A model generated the notes under the pieces. That model made no database searches. It was not told where the DNA came from and worked only from the letters and a program-made list of their open reading frames with translations. The translations under genes and the position numbers were made by a program. From positions 8,050 to 72,049 of IMG/VR virus record IMGVR_UViG_3300032307_000516: DNA of 64,000 nucleotides. One strand, written 5' to 3'. Below are positions 3,643 to 9,026 of the stretch, one piece after another (within the stretch, counting starts at the first letter, position 1; each line of letters starts with the position of its first letter). Origin of the DNA: a virus.

Positions 3643-3856
3643 CTAATAAGTTATTTGAAATATTTGCGAAAAGTTCGATGGAATCAATTATAGGTCCAGG
3701 GCACAAATCCGTGTGAGGAATCCAATTGATAGAAGAACCTTCTACTGAGTAATGCACGTACACGTGATATCCATAGAAAAGTCCTAATAAGTTAAAGGCA
3801 AAGGAGTTGATAATACCGGTTAAAAACAACTTTATCTCTTTAGATAGCAAATAAAT

Positions 3857-3936
3857 GCCCTCGTGGTGGAATTGGTAGACACGCTAGACTTAGGATCTAG
3901 TGCGAAAGCGTGAGAGTTCGAGTCTCTCCGAGGGTA
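3857..3936 (+). tRNA. tRNA-Leu(TAG)
   Basis: Cloverleaf with variable arm, loop CTTAGGA. Confidence 0.95.
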
Positions 3937-3938
3937 CT

Positions 3939-4436
3939 ATGAAAGTTATATTTTTAGATTTTGATGGTGTTCTTAATCTTATACCTCAAGGACATGACTA
4001 TTACGGAGGGATTTTTCACCCTGAATTTGTCGGCAACCTAGGTAGGATTATAGAGGAAACTGGAGCAAAACTTGTGATAAGCTCTTCGTGGAGAACTATG
4101 GGATTGGAAAGACTTAGAATGATGTGGGAACATCGTTTATATCCAGGAGACATCATAGGAGTTACCCCAGATCTTAGATGGAGGACAAAAAAAGATGCTA
4201 TGGAATTAAACGAAGTCGAGTACGTTAGAGGAGATGAAATAGAGTCATGGCTAAATCTACATCCGGAGGTAACTAATTATGTTATACTTGACGATGATGA
4301 TGATATGTTACAATCACAAAGAATAAACTTTGTAAGAACATCTGATAATATTAATCATCCTGATTGCATTGATATAGGATACGGATTAACTAATATTTGT
4401 TCTAACGATGCAATTAGAATTTTAAACAGAAAATAA
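3939..4436 (+). CDS. HAD-superfamily phosphatase (HAD_SAK_2-like)
   Basis: MKVIFLDFDGVL, SSSWR, RGDEI, YVILDD motifs; start corrected to the ATG after tRNA-Leu. Confidence 0.85.
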   Translation: MKVIFLDFDGVLNLIPQGHDYYGGIFHPEFVGNLGRIIEETGAKLVISSSWRTMGLERLRMMWEHRLYPGDIIGVTPDLRWRTKKDAMELNEVEYVRGDEIESWLNLHPEVTNYVILDDDDDMLQSQRINFVRTSDNINHPDCIDIGYGLTNICSNDAIRILNRK

Positions 4437-5005
4437 TGAAAGTTATATTTTTAGATCATGATGGAGTAATTTGTCTTTCCCAGCAATTTGGTGGGCGTTA
4501 CAAAAAGCAGACTAAAGCTAGAACTAAGCTTTCTCAAAACGTGATGGATTTTCCAGTCGATGCTAGATTTGATAACTTCGATAAGAAAGCTATTAAAGTT
4601 CTAAACCTAATCTTAGAAGATACTGGAGCTGAAATAGTTGTTTCTTCTGATTGGAAGAACTGGGCAAATGTTGAAGAAATGGGCGAATATTACGAACAAC
4701 AAGGTATAATTAAAAAGCCTATTGATTTTACACCTAGAGAATACACAATGCCAGAGAAACAAGAATGGCATCCAGACTGGGATTTAGAAGCATCAAGAAC
4801 TTTAGAAATCCAAGAATGGCTAAAAGATCATCCAGAGGTTACTCATTGGGTAGCAATAGATGATTTAGATATGAGCTTTAAAGAGGTATCAAATAATAGA
4901 AGCGGTACTGGCTGGGGCTTAAAAAACTTTGTACACACCCCAAGTATCACTGAAGGGATTAAAAAAATGGGTATAAAAGAAAAAGTTTTAAAATTTTTAA
5001 AATAA
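4436..5005 (+). CDS. HAD-superfamily phosphatase (HAD_SAK_2-like), paralog
   Basis: FLDHDGV, SSDWK, WVAIDD motifs. Confidence 0.85.
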   Translation: MKVIFLDHDGVICLSQQFGGRYKKQTKARTKLSQNVMDFPVDARFDNFDKKAIKVLNLILEDTGAEIVVSSDWKNWANVEEMGEYYEQQGIIKKPIDFTPREYTMPEKQEWHPDWDLEASRTLEIQEWLKDHPEVTHWVAIDDLDMSFKEVSNNRSGTGWGLKNFVHTPSITEGIKKMGIKEKVLKFLK

Positions 5006-5427: not shown

Positions 5428-5501
5428 GATCTCGTAGCTCAGTTGGCTAGAGCACCTCACTTTTAATGAGGGAGTCGAGGGTTCGAGCCCCTCCGGGATC
5501 A
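5428..5501 (+). tRNA. tRNA-Lys(TTT)
   Basis: Cloverleaf, loop CTTTTAA. Confidence 0.95.
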
Positions 5502-5507
5502 CTACAC

Positions 5508-5670: not shown

Positions 5671-5742
5671 GGTCGTGTGGTCGAGTGGTTTAGGCACTAG
5701 TCTGCAAAACTAGTTATACTGGTTCAATTCCAGTCACGGCCT
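5671..5742 (+). tRNA. tRNA-Cys(GCA)
   Basis: Cloverleaf, loop CTGCAAA, U73. Confidence 0.92.
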
Positions 5743-5759
5743 CAAAAAATGTAAGAAGT

Positions 5760-5885
5760 ATGAAAATAGTTATTGAAGGAAAAATGAAATCGTCGAATCA
5801 CAGATTAAATGCGATTCCAGTTAAAATTGAAAGAAAAAATTCTCTAATCAAAAGAATCAAAAGATTGATTAATAAAGGAAAGTAA
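5760..5885 (+). CDS. small basic hypothetical protein (41 aa)
   Basis: MKIVIEGKMKSS...RLINKGK fills the spacer; stop lies inside tRNA-Ser(GCT). Confidence 0.4.
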   Translation: MKIVIEGKMKSSNHRLNAIPVKIERKNSLIKRIKRLINKGK

Positions 5886-5962
5886 TCTCAGATGGTGACG
5901 GGGCTCGCCTGCTAAGCGAAGCGTACCTTAATTGGTATTTGGTTCGATTCCAATTCTTTCCG
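5877..5962 (+). tRNA. tRNA-Ser(GCT)
   Basis: Loop CTGCTAA, long variable arm; slightly imperfect stems. Confidence 0.85.
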
Positions 5963-5968
5963 CAACAT

Positions 5969-6042
5969 TGACATATAGCTCAGTTGGTTAGAGCGTTGAT
6001 CTGATACGTCAAAGGTCGAAGGTTCGAATCCTTCTATGTCAA
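5969..6042 (+). tRNA. tRNA-Ile(GAT)
   Basis: Cloverleaf, loop CTGATAC. Confidence 0.93.
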
Positions 6043-6058
6043 CTTAAAAATTATAAAA

Positions 6059-6085
6059 ATGAAAAAAGAATTTGACAACTTGTAG
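6059..6085 (+). CDS. 8-aa uORF MKKEFDNL whose TAG lies in a hairpin
   Basis: A-rich leader, ATG...TTG TAG; CTTGTAGG/CCTACAAG hairpin abuts the ATG at 6106. Confidence 0.45.
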   Translation: MKKEFDNL

Positions 6086-6105
6086 GTTTAATTAAACCCT
6101 ACAAG

Positions 6106-6297
6106 ATGAGTAAAAACACAAACAGAGCAAAACTGAACAAAGCAATGAATGGTAGAGAACACAGAAACATTTTAAATAATGCTCTTTATCCTCCATACAG
6201 TGAATATGATCACACATGGTGGCATGGAAATTTATCCAATCACAAATGGAGATCATACAAAACCTGGAAACACAACAGAAAAACAAAATGGAAGTAA
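6106..6297 (+). CDS. small basic Trp/Lys-rich hypothetical protein
   Basis: 63-aa ORF ending WRSYKTWKHNRKTKWK. Confidence 0.65.
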   Translation: MSKNTNRAKLNKAMNGREHRNILNNALYPPYSEYDHTWWHGNLSNHKWRSYKTWKHNRKTKWK

Positions 6298-6308
6298 TTC
6301 CATTTTAC

Positions 6309-6381
6309 AGTCTCTTAGCTCAGTTGGTAGAGCGCTTGGTTTACATCCAAGATGTCGGGGGTTCGAGCCCCTCAGGGACTA
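6309..6381 (+). tRNA. tRNA-Val(TAC)
   Basis: Cloverleaf, loop TTTACAT. Confidence 0.95.
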
Positions 6382-6384
6382 CAA

Positions 6385-6537
6385 GATTAGAAGCGGTAGA
6401 TTTGGTTACTTCGCACTTTTAATGCCCGTGTCGGGGGTTCGAATCCCTCATCTAGCTCCATAGCAGATCCTAGGATTTGTGCTAGATTAGCTCAGCGGTA
6501 GAGCAGGTTCCAAACCAAATCTAAATATTCTCTAATC
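6385..6537 (+). ncRNA. scaffold RNA copy 1 enclosing a circularly permuted tRNA-Lys(TTT)
   Basis: 3' tRNA half 6413-6460 precedes 5' half 6481-6507; flanks GATTAGA/TCTAATC and AGATTTGGTT/AACCAAATCT pair. Confidence 0.85.
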
Positions 6538-6545
6538 CTAATATT

Positions 6546-6629
6546 GATTAGAAGCGGTGAAAGGGGTTACTTCTCAAAACCTTGTAAATTTTTGACCAAA
6601 AAACCACCCCGATTAAATATTCTCTAATC
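6546..6629 (+). ncRNA. scaffold RNA copy 2 without tRNA cargo
   Basis: GATTAGAAGCGGT...GGTTACTTC...TAAATATTCTCTAATC repeated, with a different inner stem GGGGT/ACCCC. Confidence 0.75.
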
Positions 6630-6635
6630 AAAACT

Positions 6636-6707
6636 GGGGATGTAGCTCAGCGGTAGAGCTCCCGACTGTTAATCGGTAGGTCGCTGGTTCGAATCCAGCC
6701 TTCCCCG
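6636..6707 (+). tRNA. tRNA-Asn(GTT)
   Basis: Cloverleaf, loop CTGTTAA. Confidence 0.93.
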
Positions 6708-6743
6708 CAATTCAGAGTGTTGAGCAATTGGTTGCTCAGCTGA
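6687..6743 (+). repeat. direct repeat copy 1 (tRNA-Asn 3' end plus truncated tRNA-Tyr 5' part)
   Basis: Near-identical to 7870-7927. Confidence 0.85.
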
Positions 6744-6780
6744 TAAAAGAATATATTATATTTAGATTCAATTTTAAGTT

Positions 6781-7716
6781 ATGACAGGATACCATATATA
6801 CTACCAAACATCAGAAGATGGAGAATATGAGCAAATAAATTATTTAGTTCAATTAGCTTCAATTTTAAATTGGAAAAAGAATTATGGCCCCATCAAATTG
6901 TATTGTAACCAAAGATTTCTAGAGTCTATATCCAAATATGGAATTGATAAAGAATATGATTTTATTGATACTGAGTATTTAGAATCAGTTCCATATAAAG
7001 ATAGTATGTCGACATTTTGGAGCTTTTGCAAAATTTATGTCGCTAAAAAGATTGTCGAAACTGAATCGGAATTTTGTATTTTAGATACTGATTTATGGAT
7101 TCAAGCGCCTGACTTATTAAGTCAAGAACATGATTTAGTTTTACATCACGCTGAAGCTTATGATCTAAATTATGATCGCAACCCATATCCAGATCCTAGA
7201 AATTGGTTAATTGAGTCAGAGATAGAAGAATATGATTGGAATACCTCTCCCGCAAATTGCGCGATATTGTATTTTAAAAATAAAAGTAAAGAGTTAATAG
7301 ATGCTTGGTATGAATTTGCAATTAAAATAGTAGAGCGTCATAAAGATAATAATACAGAACCGAATTTGCGTTGCGGTACTATTTTTATCGAGCAACGTCT
7401 ATTACCTACAATAGCAAAGAAAATGGGTATATCAATGACGGTCGTGTCTCCTTGTACTTATTTAACTTGGATACCAGCTTCATTGGCTGATGGGCGGGAA
7501 TGGAGGCCTTCATTAGATTATTCAGAACGATCTTTATATATTGGTTCTAATATTAAACATGTATGGGGAGCAAAAAAGTTTTATTCTGAAAATTGGATTC
7601 GGGAGTTAATAATTGACAATGCTATGATAGGAATTAATTTAGTTCAGAATCAAGAAAGAAAGTATTTTAAGTTATACAGTGATGTGCATGAAGTGCATCC
7701 AAAAAAATATATTTAA
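6781..7716 (+). CDS. DUF6734-like / GT-A glycosyltransferase-like protein
   Basis: GPIKLY, FWSFCKIY, hydrophobic strand plus DTD (DxD), EQ motif. Confidence 0.6.
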   Translation: MTGYHIYYQTSEDGEYEQINYLVQLASILNWKKNYGPIKLYCNQRFLESISKYGIDKEYDFIDTEYLESVPYKDSMSTFWSFCKIYVAKKIVETESEFCILDTDLWIQAPDLLSQEHDLVLHHAEAYDLNYDRNPYPDPRNWLIESEIEEYDWNTSPANCAILYFKNKSKELIDAWYEFAIKIVERHKDNNTEPNLRCGTIFIEQRLLPTIAKKMGISMTVVSPCTYLTWIPASLADGREWRPSLDYSERSLYIGSNIKHVWGAKKFYSENWIRELIIDNAMIGINLVQNQERKYFKLYSDVHEVHPKKYI

Positions 7717-7891: not shown

Positions 7892-7927
7892 CACTTCGGA
7901 GTGTTGAGCAATTGGCTGCTCAGCTGA
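7870..7927 (+). repeat. direct repeat copy 2
   Basis: Near-identical to 6687-6743. Confidence 0.85.
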
Positions 7928-7981
7928 CTGTAAATCAGCCGCCTTACGGCATTGGGGGTTCGAATCCCTCCGCTCCGACCA
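7897..7981 (+). tRNA. tRNA-Tyr(GTA), C1:G72
   Basis: Loop CTGTAAA, variable arm, encoded CCA. Confidence 0.93.
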
Positions 7982-8537: not shown

Positions 8538-9026
8538 ATGAAAGTGCTAGTATTAAATAATGACTTTACGCCTATAAGCGTTACCGATTTTGCCCGGGGA
8601 TTTAAGCTTGTATATAAAGGTAAAGCAGAAATTTTAGAGCACGATGAACAAAACCCAATTGTTACTGATCAAAGCACCTACAAAAGACCATCAGTAATTC
8701 GACTTCTAAAGTATGTTGTTTTGCCTTTCAAAAAGCTAAAACCTACAAGGGAAAATATCTTTAAAAGAGATGAGATGAAATGTATCTATTGTGATACATC
8801 AAAAAATCTCACAATAGATCACGTTTTTCCCAGATCTAGAGGTGGTGGTAACACATGGGAAAATTTAGCTACATGCTGTTCAAAATGTAACGGTAGAAAA
8901 GGAGATAGAACCCCGGAAGAAGCCGGAATGAAAATGAGACAAAAGCCATTTAAACCCGGATATGGCTATTTCATAAGGAATTTTTCCAAAGGAATAGATG
9001 TGTGGACAGCATATCTTCCAGATTAA
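8538..9026 (+). CDS. HNH endonuclease (McrA-like)
   Basis: CxYC, TIDHVFPRSRGG, WENL, CxxCN motifs. Confidence 0.9.
   Translation: MKVLVLNNDFTPISVTDFARGFKLVYKGKAEILEHDEQNPIVTDQSTYKRPSVIRLLKYVVLPFKKLKPTRENIFKRDEMKCIYCDTSKNLTIDHVFPRSRGGGNTWENLATCCSKCNGRKGDRTPEEAGMKMRQKPFKPGYGYFIRNFSKGIDVWTAYLPD

What the first reader, a model, noticed from the sequence alone, without database searches (positions are those of the whole stretch)
6385..6629. Duplicated cargo-carrying RNA motif GATTAGAAGCGGT...GGTTACTTC-[cargo]-...TAAATATTCTCTAATC
Two tandem copies share three invariant blocks, while the inner stem differs but still pairs (AGATTTGGTT/AACCAAATCT vs GGGGT/ACCCC). This is covariation-like evidence for structure. 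GAAG in the internal loop can pair with CTTC next to the cargo (pseudoknot). Copy 1 holds the permuted tRNA, copy 2 only a short A/T-rich insert. Conserved unpaired nucleotides suggest a catalytic core or a protein-binding site.
Basis: partly seen in the sequence, partly recalled or inferred. Interest (0 to 1): 0.78.

Follow-up and report, generated by a model that had tools for sequence, protein, structure and literature searches.

The report
Tandem phage Y RNAs with tRNA-mimic
The repeated motif is the shared "handle" of two small RNAs that a large phage most likely makes as partners for its own Ro60 protein; one handle carries a back-to-front lysine tRNA, a new variant of a known kind of RNA-protein particle.

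Summary
Two tandem units (6385-6537, 6546-6629) share three exact blocks and fold as outer stem P1, conserved internal loop, inner stem P2, then a variable insert.

They belong to a large RNA family. My covariance model finds 130 sites (107 distinct) in 46 of 51 sources that encode relatives of one protein, a Ro60/TROVE homologue. All 130 lie on that gene's strand and 98 lie within about 0.5-0.7 kb of it. The window's own phage encodes this Ro60 7.1 kb upstream, preceded by three more family members. All 16 modelled pairs of P1 and P2 covary.

Best reading: Y-RNA-like partners of phage Ro60. Copy 1 resembles YrlA, a permuted tRNA-Lys(UUU) mimic that keeps its anticodon arm. Copy 2 resembles YrlB. 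The handle differs from the published GNCGAA motif and is not in Rfam.

The proposed GAAG:CUUC pseudoknot shows no covariation, and nothing supports a ribozyme.

Bacillus phage G carries the same family, so it is testable in an isolate. Ro60 binding is inferred, not shown.

This scan has already reported the same kind of Ro60 "handle plus tRNA-mimic" arrays on other DNA. Verdict: new variant of a known kind.

The parts
6385..6537 (+). Copy 1: Y-RNA-like gene with a permuted tRNA-Lys(UUU)-like cargo (YrlA-like)
   Evidence: Model R2: 53 bits, E about 5e-10 to 6e-9. Fold z = -3.05. Rfam YrlA matches 6425-6509 at 28.3 bits, below the gathering score of 69.
6385..6391 (+). P1 5' strand of copy 1; pairs with 6531-6537
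   Evidence: 7 of 7 pairs. P1 covaries across the family, 7 of 7 pairs with changes on both sides.
6392..6397 (+). Conserved 5' internal-loop block AGCGG(U) of copy 1
   Evidence: G9 and C10 are invariant in 107 of 107 distinct members; G12 in 103 of 107.
6398..6407 (+). P2 5' strand of copy 1; pairs with 6513-6522
   Evidence: Perfect inverted repeat I9. P2 covaries, 9 of 9 pairs with changes on both sides.
6408..6412 (+). ACUUC linker, part of the conserved UACUUC block, between P2 and the cargo
   Evidence: U25, C27 and C30 are invariant in 107 of 107.
6413..6460 (+). tRNA 3' part: nt 29-31, anticodon loop CUUUUAA, nt 39-43, variable loop, T arm, acceptor 3' strand, then UCCA
   Evidence: Parsed. 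T arm pairs 5 of 5; U33 and A37 are present.
6461..6480 (+). Hairpin loop that closes the acceptor stem
   Evidence: palindrome I18.
6481..6507 (+). tRNA 5' part: acceptor 5' strand, U8 A9, D arm, A26, G27 G28
   Evidence: Acceptor pairs 7 of 7. G27 and G28 pair with C43 and C42. The acceptor shows compensatory changes in relative L022/L007.
6513..6537 (+). P2 3' strand, conserved AAAUAUUC loop block and P1 3' strand of copy 1
   Evidence: C308 is invariant in 107 of 107.
6538..6545 (+). 8-nt spacer between the two copies
6546..6629 (+). Copy 2: short Y-RNA-like gene (YrlB-like) with an A/U-rich hairpin cargo (6574-6595)
   Evidence: R1 104.7 bits and R2 77 bits. It is the only copy in 6 of 7 related loci, always between tRNA-Val and tRNA-Asn.
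6309..6382 (+). tRNA-Val, ends 2 nt before copy 1; its 3' processing would set the 5' end of the Y-RNA precursor (inferred)
6636..6708 (+). tRNA-Asn, starts 6 nt after copy 2; RNase P cleavage would set the 3' end of the precursor (inferred)
5803..5849 (+). Possible decayed third copy: 3' block kept, AGCGG and UACUUC lost
   Evidence: R1 only 14.5 bits, E = 4.9. Its 3' block plus 4 flanking nt is 95% identical to that of copy 2 (D4).

Best explanation
The two repeats are tandem genes for Y-RNA-like non-coding RNAs of a large T4-like freshwater phage that encodes its own Ro60 (TROVE) protein.

Each RNA has a constant handle. Its order is P1 (7 bp, ending G-C, A-U), a 5' loop AGCGG, P2 (about 9-10 bp), UACUUC, the cargo, the P2 return strand, a 3' loop (N)AAUAUUC, and the P1 return strand. 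I infer that this handle is the docking site for the phage Ro60. The interior is an exchangeable effector module.

Copy 1 carries a complete cloverleaf tRNA-Lys(UUU) look-alike. It is wired as a circular permutation: the acceptor stem is closed by a hairpin and the chain is opened between nt 28 and 29 of the anticodon stem, where the handle attaches. Copy 2 carries only a small A/U-rich hairpin.

Both are probably transcribed with the surrounding tRNA operon and released by tRNA processing (inferred). With Ro60 they would form particles in which the cargo tethers or baits tRNA-recognising proteins, as known Y RNAs tether Ro60 to PNPase (inferred).

Shown: the structure, the family, and the linkage to the Ro60 gene. 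Inferred: Ro60 binding, processing and function.
For: 1. The phage's own record encodes a 548-aa TROVE protein at G000:C1:5721-7367, 7.1 kb upstream on the same strand. Pfam TROVE scores 38.3 bits against a cut-off of 23. The best solved relative is Thermus phage phiLo Ro60 (9KOP, 9L5Y), E about 9e-11.

2. A model built only from copy-2-type sequences (R1) hit sites directly beside the Ro60 gene in related phages. The refined model R2 gives 130 hits at E <= 0.001 in 46 of 51 sources. All 130 are on the Ro60 strand. 68 lie within 500 nt upstream and 30 within 700 nt downstream of the gene. In the window's own record three members precede Ro60: L009 324-547, 567-636 and 647-720.

3. A scan that did not preselect on Ro60 gave 14 true-motif loci among 79 screened. 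Ro60 is on the same record for 10 of these 14. The other 4 are fragments rated 3-22% complete. The only record at least 90% complete has Ro60.

4. Covariation: 16 of 16 pairs change on both sides, 93.4% of cells are paired, and the score is 0.850 against 0.202 in shuffles (0 of 500) and at most 0.19 with slid partners.

5. The stem, internal loop, stem layout, tandem arrays, and one tRNA-like member per genome all match published Y RNAs (PMC4201824, Results read; PMC12135203, passages).

6. Rfam YrlA aligns the T arm, closed acceptor and D arm of copy 1.

7. Seven permuted-cargo members share the same break at nt 28/29. Pairs 27:43 and 28:42 covary (GG:CC, CU:AG, CG:CG, CA:UG, CC:GG).

8. The handle is missing beside distant Ro60 genes of 23-35% identity: 0 of 4 isolates hit at E <= 0.01. 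This fits protein-RNA co-evolution.

9. Contigs from RNA libraries of three studies cover the stretch: X1 6377-6699, X10 6416-6542, X7 6546-6582.
Against: No binding, transcript-end or processing data exist. The RNA-library evidence is contigs only, and DNA carry-over is not excluded.

The published Ro-binding motif GNCGAAN0-1G is absent from both window copies and present in only 5 of 107 distinct members. CGAAGCR occurs in 26 of 107.

The window copies lie 7.1 kb from Ro60, beyond the 4-kb neighbourhood used by Chen et al. 2014.

Rfam YrlA scores 28.3 bits, well under its gathering score of 69, and matches only the tRNA-like part.

Alignments A2 and A3 were fitted to the model, so the pair counts lean towards the structure.

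Copy 2's fold alone is not better than shuffles.

No RtcB or RNA ligase was found on the 72-kb fragment, which is rated 25% complete.
Confidence: 0.8

Rival explanations
1. Copy 1 is a true circularly permuted tRNA-Lys gene. The handle acts as an intron-like element: it is excised, nt 28 and 29 are ligated, and RNase P plus 3' trimming then open the acceptor to yield a working tRNA.
For: The cargo is a full cloverleaf with U8, A14, GG, G15:C48, G53:C61, a U33-UUU-A37 loop, a 7-bp acceptor and an encoded UCCA. CCA follows the acceptor in 3 of 7 permuted members. M. smegmatis YrlA is cut by RNase P and gains CCA (PMC4201824, Results read). Wang et al. raise possible further processing of YrlA (10.1101/312249, passage).
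Against: The two would-be cut sites face each other at one junction. There is no bulge-helix-bulge (inspection). No RNA ligase or RtcB is on the fragment. 84 of 107 distinct members carry no T arm at all, and 54 are 100 nt or shorter. In many members the handle replaces the acceptor stem, so they cannot mature into a tRNA. 4 of 7 permuted members lack CCA. The phage already has a canonical tRNA-Lys(UUU) at 5428-5502.
Confidence: 0.05
2. The handle is a Ro60-independent processing or stability cassette of phage stable-RNA operons, such as a leader-trailer helix cut by a host RNase. Its nearness to Ro60 would only reflect shared placement in tRNA regions.
For: The window copies and some others lie inside tRNA arrays: phage G 11305-11369, L025, L053, L037, L051. 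No terminator separates them from the tRNAs.
Against: 98 of 130 sites hug the Ro60 gene rather than tRNAs, and all are on its strand. L052 has members but no tRNA genes in 21.6 kb. The near-invariant unpaired nucleotides argue for a specific ligand. The handle tracks one Ro60 clade and is missing beside distant Ro60 genes that also sit near tRNAs, such as csAssE-Sib and crAss001.
Confidence: 0.07
3. The conserved core is a small self-cleaving or self-ligating ribozyme that carries cargo.
For: Near-invariant unpaired nucleotides lie in an internal loop flanked by covarying helices. The 3' loop AAUAUUC faintly recalls loop B of the hairpin ribozyme; that comparison is recalled, not tested.
Against: No ribozyme family appears in Rfam 15 at E up to 10 on 5740-6720 or 6383-6632. 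The proposed pseudoknot fails. The tight linkage to a known RNA-binding protein explains the conservation more simply.
Confidence: 0.03
4. It is a DNA-level mobile element (MITE-like) with terminal inverted repeats that has inserted in the tRNA array.
For: The ends are inverted repeats. Copy 1 is present or absent between close relatives, and an RNA-library contig of a relative joins 6384 to 6546 across 13 shared letters.
Against: P1 sequences differ between members and covary rather than being conserved. Orientation is fixed relative to Ro60 in 130 of 130 sites. No target duplications or transposase are seen. The indel is explained by recombination between the repeated 5' blocks.
Confidence: 0.03

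Closest known systems
YrlA / YrlB Y RNAs bound by bacterial Ro60 (Rsr) in Salmonella Typhimurium and Mycobacterium smegmatis; Rfam RF02553 (Chen et al. 2014, PMC4201824; Wang et al. 2018, 10.1101/312249)
   Same: Small RNAs sit in tandem on the Ro60 strand. The 5' and 3' ends pair into a stem with a conserved internal loop. One RNA per genome carries a circularly permuted tRNA-like domain (T arm, closed acceptor, D arm), and a second is a short hairpin RNA. As in M. smegmatis YrlA, the acceptor has 7 bp.
   Different: The handle sequence (AGCGG / UACUUC / AAUAUUC) is not the GNCGAAN0-1G motif, which occurs in 5 of 107 members. The Rfam score is 28.3 against a gathering score of 69. The hairpin before the T arm is a canonical anticodon arm with U33, a real anticodon and a purine at 37. 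Published YrlA is said to lack an anticodon loop, and the hairpin in that position is labelled a variable arm. In other members the handle takes the acceptor's place. The window copies lie 7 kb from Ro60 inside a tRNA operon.
Thermus phage phiLo Ro60 with Yrl1 and Yrl2 (PMC12135203; PDB 9KOP, 9L5Y)
   Same: A phage-encoded Ro60 has Y-like RNAs just upstream, with a stem, bulge, stem design. It is the best solved relative of this phage's Ro60 (E about 9e-11). Binding was shown there by EMSA and cryo-EM.
   Different: phiLo RNAs use a CGAA bulge and, in the passages I read, are not described as carrying tRNA-like cargo. The proteins are only distantly related.
Deinococcus radiodurans Yrn1 / Yrn2 (PMC4201824)
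   Same: [quoted passage not shown] Yrn1 has a T arm and a possible anticodon-like arm.
   Different: Yrn1's loop has 6 nt and it lacks a full D arm. The handle sequence differs.
Circularly permuted tRNA genes of the red alga Cyanidioschyzon merolae (Soma et al. 2007, as cited in 10.1101/312249; details recalled)
   Same: The 3' half lies upstream of the 5' half, and the acceptor is closed in the precursor.
   Different: Those genes mature through bulge-helix-bulge splicing into working tRNAs. Here no such motif or enzyme is evident, and most family members carry no tRNA.

Membership tests
Y RNA (Ro60 partner RNA) | Encoded next to a Ro60/TROVE gene on the same strand (within 4 kb in Chen et al. 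2014) | tested here: met
   For the family, 98 of 130 sites lie within about 0.5-0.7 kb of Ro60 and 130 of 130 are on its strand. The two window copies are on the same strand but 7.1 kb away. Three siblings lie directly upstream of the phage's Ro60.
Y RNA (Ro60 partner RNA) | The 5' and 3' ends pair into a stem interrupted by a conserved internal loop or bulge (stem, bulge, stem) | tested here: met
   P1, a 6x8-nt conserved loop and P2. 16 of 16 pairs covary.
Y RNA (Ro60 partner RNA) | Ro-binding sequence GNCGAAN0-1G (bacterial) or CGAA in the loop | tested here: not met
   Both window copies read AGAAGCGG. GNCGAAN0-1G occurs in 5 of 107 distinct members, CGAAGCR in 26 of 107 and GAAGCR in 76 of 107.
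Y RNA (Ro60 partner RNA) | Physical binding by Ro60 | not testable with these tools
   No RNA-protein prediction or binding data are available.
YrlA (Rfam RF02553) | Score at or above the gathering threshold of 69 bits | tested here: not met
   28.3 bits on model positions 23-86 only. The phage G member scores 36.2 bits.
YrlA (Rfam RF02553) | Permuted tRNA-like module: T arm, closed acceptor stem, D arm | tested here: met
   Alignment; parse.
YrlA (Rfam RF02553) | No anticodon loop (Wang et al. 2018) | tested here: not met
   A 7-nt loop CUUUUAA sits on a 5-bp split stem in copy 1. 14 of 23 T-arm members have a 5 of 5 stem plus a U33/R37 loop, against 0.83 expected from shuffles.
Circularly permuted / split tRNA genes | Bulge-helix-bulge motif at the junction, for the splicing endonuclease | tested here: not met
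   By inspection, the two chain ends leave the anticodon stem at the same point (28|29) with 5-nt linkers. There is no 4-bp helix between 3-nt bulges.
Small self-cleaving ribozymes (Rfam families) | Match to a known ribozyme model | tested here: not met
   None at E up to 10.
Ro60 / TROVE protein (the presumed partner) | TROVE domain above the Pfam cut-off; similarity to a solved Ro60 | tested here: met
   38.3 bits against a cut-off of 23. 9KOP and 9L5Y at E about 9e-11. 53.5% identity to phage G gp540, annotated as a TROVE ribonucleoprotein. The vWA/MIDAS part was not tested.

The most novel reading that the evidence does not exclude
The handle is a display platform. This Ro60 clade's phages graft authentic tRNA bodies onto one Ro60-binding handle. 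The anticodons seen are Lys UUU (most often), Asn GUU, Ser UGA and GCU, Phe GAA, Tyr GUA, Leu CAA, Thr GGU and Ile UAU. Some bodies are attached at the acceptor end and some through a nick in the anticodon stem. The resulting Ro60 particles would bait or decoy host proteins that read anticodon arms, such as the anticodon nucleases of anti-phage defence, or hand damaged tRNAs to repair or decay. Ro60/Y RNA would then be a counter-defence module. A preprint reports that a Ro60-like protein of coliphage Bas63 counters the ppl defence system (10.1101/2024.10.10.617714, passage read).
Probability: 0.2. Interest if true: 0.85.

Novelty: new variant of a known kind. Interest (0 to 1): 0.55.

Why it matters
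Ro60 and Y RNAs are conserved from bacteria to humans, yet the role of the tRNA-like module of bacterial Y RNAs is still open.

This family shows one conserved handle carrying many interchangeable tRNA bodies with real anticodon arms. That points to anticodon-reading partners.

The family also occurs in a cultured phage, Bacillus phage G. It has five copies upstream of gp540, one permuted tRNA-Ile mimic, and one copy in the tRNA array. Binding, processing and phenotype can therefore be tested directly.

The result also explains "scrambled tRNA" signals in phage tRNA arrays that gene finders miss.

Tried and rejected
Pseudoknot GAAG:CUUC. Counted on 54 distinct sequences. There is no change on both sides at any of the 4 pairs, and 18 of 54 are unpaired at one pair. 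Shuffles do as well, and the pairing conflicts with P1. Rejected.

Ribozyme and other known RNA families. The Rfam gathering search of the window gives only 25 tRNA hits. E-value searches of 5740-6720 and 6383-6632 give YrlA at 28.3 bits plus noise. The Ro60-proximal copies give nothing relevant, and so does the phage G array.

Cellular genomes. 0 of those 80 pass R1 at E <= 1. They are chance matches. This says nothing about absence from bacteria.

L002 from the first viral scan is a chance match with no 3' block.

Distant Ro60 phages: a Desulfovibrio phage, csAssE-Sib, crAss001 and HGTV-1. 0 of 4 hit at E <= 0.01. L062 and L063 (26% identity) are borderline at E about 0.03.

TROVE is absent on three records rated 9-12% complete and Ro60 is absent on four rated 3-22% complete. 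These are fragments and not informative.

RNA repair partners. RtcB was not found. The PF09414 hit is an ATP-dependent DNA ligase. The record is only 25% complete.

Expression. Stretches of the window without cover in the RNA-library contigs (5700-5945, 6069-6314, beyond 6725) are not used as evidence. Contigs cannot show ends, strand or level.

The resemblance of the cargo's T arm to tRNA-Val and of its D arm to tRNA-Asn (D1 and D8) was considered as a trace of recombination. I left it open, because such arms are common to many tRNAs.

Supplementary tables of Chen et al. 2014, which list the phage YrlA hits and reportedly include phage G, could not be seen. They may already list the phage G tRNA-like member.

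Literature searches found no description of this handle or of anticodon-bearing phage Y RNAs.

Scripts failed or mis-parsed through my own bugs. The parse was redone. Only one search is used.

Full report
**What is there.** Window 6385-6629 lies in a phage tRNA array of 26 ARAGORN tRNAs. It sits between tRNA-Val (6309-6382) and tRNA-Asn (6636-6708). It holds two units, 6385-6537 and 6546-6629, separated by 8 nt.

Both units begin with the same 13 nt, contain GGTTACTTC, and end with the same 16 nt. These blocks match exactly nowhere else in the 64-kb window. The repeat finder reports the 31-nt direct repeat at 161-nt spacing and the perfect 11-bp inner stem of copy 1.

Each unit folds in the same way: P1 (7 bp), an internal loop (AGCGGU on one strand, AAAUAUUC on the other), P2, ACUUC, then the insert. 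Copy 1 folds better than all 200 shuffles (z = -3.05). Copy 2 alone does not (z = -1.52).

**The cargo of copy 1.** It is a complete tRNA in permuted order. Reading 5' to 3' it runs: nt 29-31, anticodon loop CUUUUAA, nt 39-43, variable loop, T arm, acceptor 3' strand, UCCA, a closing hairpin, acceptor 5' strand, U8 A9, D arm, A26 and G27 G28. G27 and G28 pair with C43 and C42. The anticodon stem is therefore whole but nicked at 28/29, and the handle leaves from that nick.

Rfam's YrlA model aligns the T arm, closed acceptor and D arm at 28.3 bits, below its gathering score of 69.

**The decisive context.** The window is G000:C1:8050-72049 of a 72-kb virus record. That record encodes a 548-aa TROVE/Ro60 protein at 5721-7367, 7.1 kb upstream on the same strand. 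Its best solved relative is the Ro60 of Thermus phage phiLo.

48 IMG/VR loci encode relatives of this protein at 26-91% identity. A covariance model built only from six copy-2-type sequences (A1, R1) hit sites immediately beside those Ro60 genes.

The refined model R2 finds 130 sites at E <= 0.001, of which 107 are distinct, in 46 of 51 sources. All 130 are on the Ro60 strand. 68 lie within 500 nt upstream and 30 within 700 nt downstream.

The five sources without a hit are these:
- Two loci where Ro60 touches the locus edge.
- L047, which has hits at E 0.001-0.01.
- Two loci whose Ro60 is only 26% identical.

The window's own record has five members: three directly before Ro60 and the two in the window.

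**An unbiased check.** A pattern scan that did not select on Ro60 gave 14 true members among 79 loci screened. Ro60 is on the same record for 10 of the 14. The other four records are rated 3-22% complete.

**Structure support.** On 107 distinct sequences all 16 modelled pairs show changes on both sides. 93.4% of cells pair. The covariation score is 0.850, against 0.202 for shuffles (0 of 500 reach it) and at most 0.19 for slid partners (one search gives the same picture on 54 sequences). The alignments were fitted to the model, which favours the structure, but the slide control and the number of pair types are hard to explain otherwise.

The unpaired core is nearly invariant. G9, C10, U25, C27, C30 and C308 are the same in 107 of 107.

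**Cargo diversity.**
- 54 of 107 distinct members are 100 nt or shorter with no T arm, like copy 2.
- 23 carry a UUCRA T arm.
- The remaining 30 are longer with other cargo, including a conserved insert of about 170 nt with a covarying hairpin.

Among the 23 T-arm members, 14 have a 5 of 5 stem plus a 7-nt loop with U33 and a purine at 37, at the tRNA distance from the T arm. Shuffles give 0.83 on average and at most 5.

The anticodons read Lys UUU (seven distinct members counting the two split ones), Asn GUU (3), Ser UGA (2), Phe GAA (2), and Tyr GUA, Ser GCU, Thr GGU, Leu CAA and Ile UAU (1 each). A Ser UGA cargo and the Leu CAA cargo keep long variable arms.

There are two wirings. In one, the handle replaces the acceptor stem and the D, anticodon and T arms keep their normal order. 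In the other, as in copy 1, the cargo is permuted. Seven permuted members all break at 28/29. Nt 29 lies within -1 to +2 nt of the end of UACUUC, and pairs 27:43 and 28:42 covary. Two of these seven (L045:12084, L047:5364) scored above E = 0.001 in the large search and come.

**An isolate.** Bacillus phage G gp540 is annotated as a TROVE ribonucleoprotein and is 53.5% identical to this Ro60. R2 finds seven members there at E <= 0.001. Five lie in the unannotated 1-kb gap before gp540. One has a permuted tRNA-Ile(UAU) cargo followed by ACCA (3723-3878; YrlA 36.2 bits, below the gathering score). One lies in the downstream tRNA array.

The handle was not found beside Ro60 genes of 23-35% identity in four other phages.

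**Comparison with print.** Chen et al. 2014 (PMC4201824; I read Results and Discussion parts 1-2 and searched passages) describe YrlA and YrlB beside Ro60 in more than 250 bacteria and 22 phages. [quoted passage not shown]

Wang et al. 2018 (passages read) state that YrlA lacks an anticodon loop and a free CCA.

The phiLo paper (passages read) shows a phage Ro60 binding two upstream stem, bulge, stem RNAs through CGAA.

Here the architecture and gene linkage match. The handle sequence does not: GNCGAAN0-1G occurs in 5 of 107. The "V" position holds genuine anticodon arms.

My five literature searches found no description of this handle.

**Mechanism.** Shown: a conserved, covarying two-helix handle with exchangeable cargo, genetically linked to one Ro60 clade.

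Inferred:
- The RNAs are co-transcribed with the tRNA operon. No terminator-like site lies between 5256 and 7900.
- They are released by the processing of tRNA-Val and tRNA-Asn and bound by Ro60 at the handle.
- The cargo recruits tRNA-recognising proteins.

Contigs from RNA libraries of three studies cover the stretch. One of them, from a relative, joins 6384 to 6546 and so lacks copy 1. This is presence in RNA libraries, not proof of transcription.

The neighbourhood fits RNA repair and tRNA biology. Two HAD_SAK_2 genes lie at 3939-5005.

**Earlier notes of this scan.** After I had found the Ro60 gene, look-ups showed that readers and agents had reported the same kind of system on this genome and on many other phages. 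One note describes the same AGCGG / arm / TACTTC unit between tRNA-Val and tRNA-Asn in another genome. I tested the claims I reuse myself.

**Verdict.** The element is a new variant of a known kind, phage Y RNAs. An open and testable question remains: what do the anticodon-bearing cargos do?

Noticed in passing
window 5876-5962: A type-II tRNA-like gene with a Ser(GCU)-type anticodon loop that ARAGORN did not call. The Rfam tRNA-Sec model scores 38.3 bits, below its gathering score of 47; the sequence was read.
   Followed up: no
window about 1500-1730: Two long tRNA-like stretches with T arms and acceptor-like ends that neither ARAGORN nor Rfam called (read). They could be intron-bearing or scaffolded tRNAs.
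   Followed up: no
window 6712-6750 and 6781-7716: After tRNA-Asn comes only the 5' part of a tRNA-Tyr. Relatives have the whole gene there. In the window an ORF with a weak DUF6734 match follows, and a complete tRNA-Tyr lies at 7897-7981. This looks like an insertion that split or duplicated the gene.
   Followed up: partly
window 3939-4436 and 4436-5005: Two adjacent HAD_SAK_2 genes (HAD domain of Swiss-Army-Knife RNA repair proteins; 95 and 81.6 bits) lie inside the tRNA array.
   Followed up: partly
L009 324-547 (G000:C1:5255-5478, upstream of the window): A third class of family member carries an insert of about 170 nt that is conserved in 15 relatives. It contains a covarying 5-bp hairpin and conserved single-stranded blocks. 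It has no Rfam match.
   Followed up: partly
window 6044-6308: The small ORF region between tRNA-Ile and tRNA-Val is missing in relatives. Contigs of four runs join 6035 to 6316 with other letters between, and related loci put the two tRNAs about 12 nt apart.
   Followed up: no
L046 1802-1924: A family member whose cargo has an anticodon-type loop reading UUA, which would match the UAA stop codon, on a 4 of 5 stem.
   Followed up: no
window 8538-9026: An HNH endonuclease gene lies directly after the last tRNA block. crAss001 and HGTV-1 also have HNH genes near their TROVE genes.
   Followed up: no
L051 2454-2524 and 21060-21145: ARAGORN calls tRNA-Asn and tRNA-Cys inside two handle units. One of these calls uses P2 as the acceptor stem. 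Gene finders may therefore annotate some Y-RNA cargos as ordinary tRNAs.
   Followed up: partly
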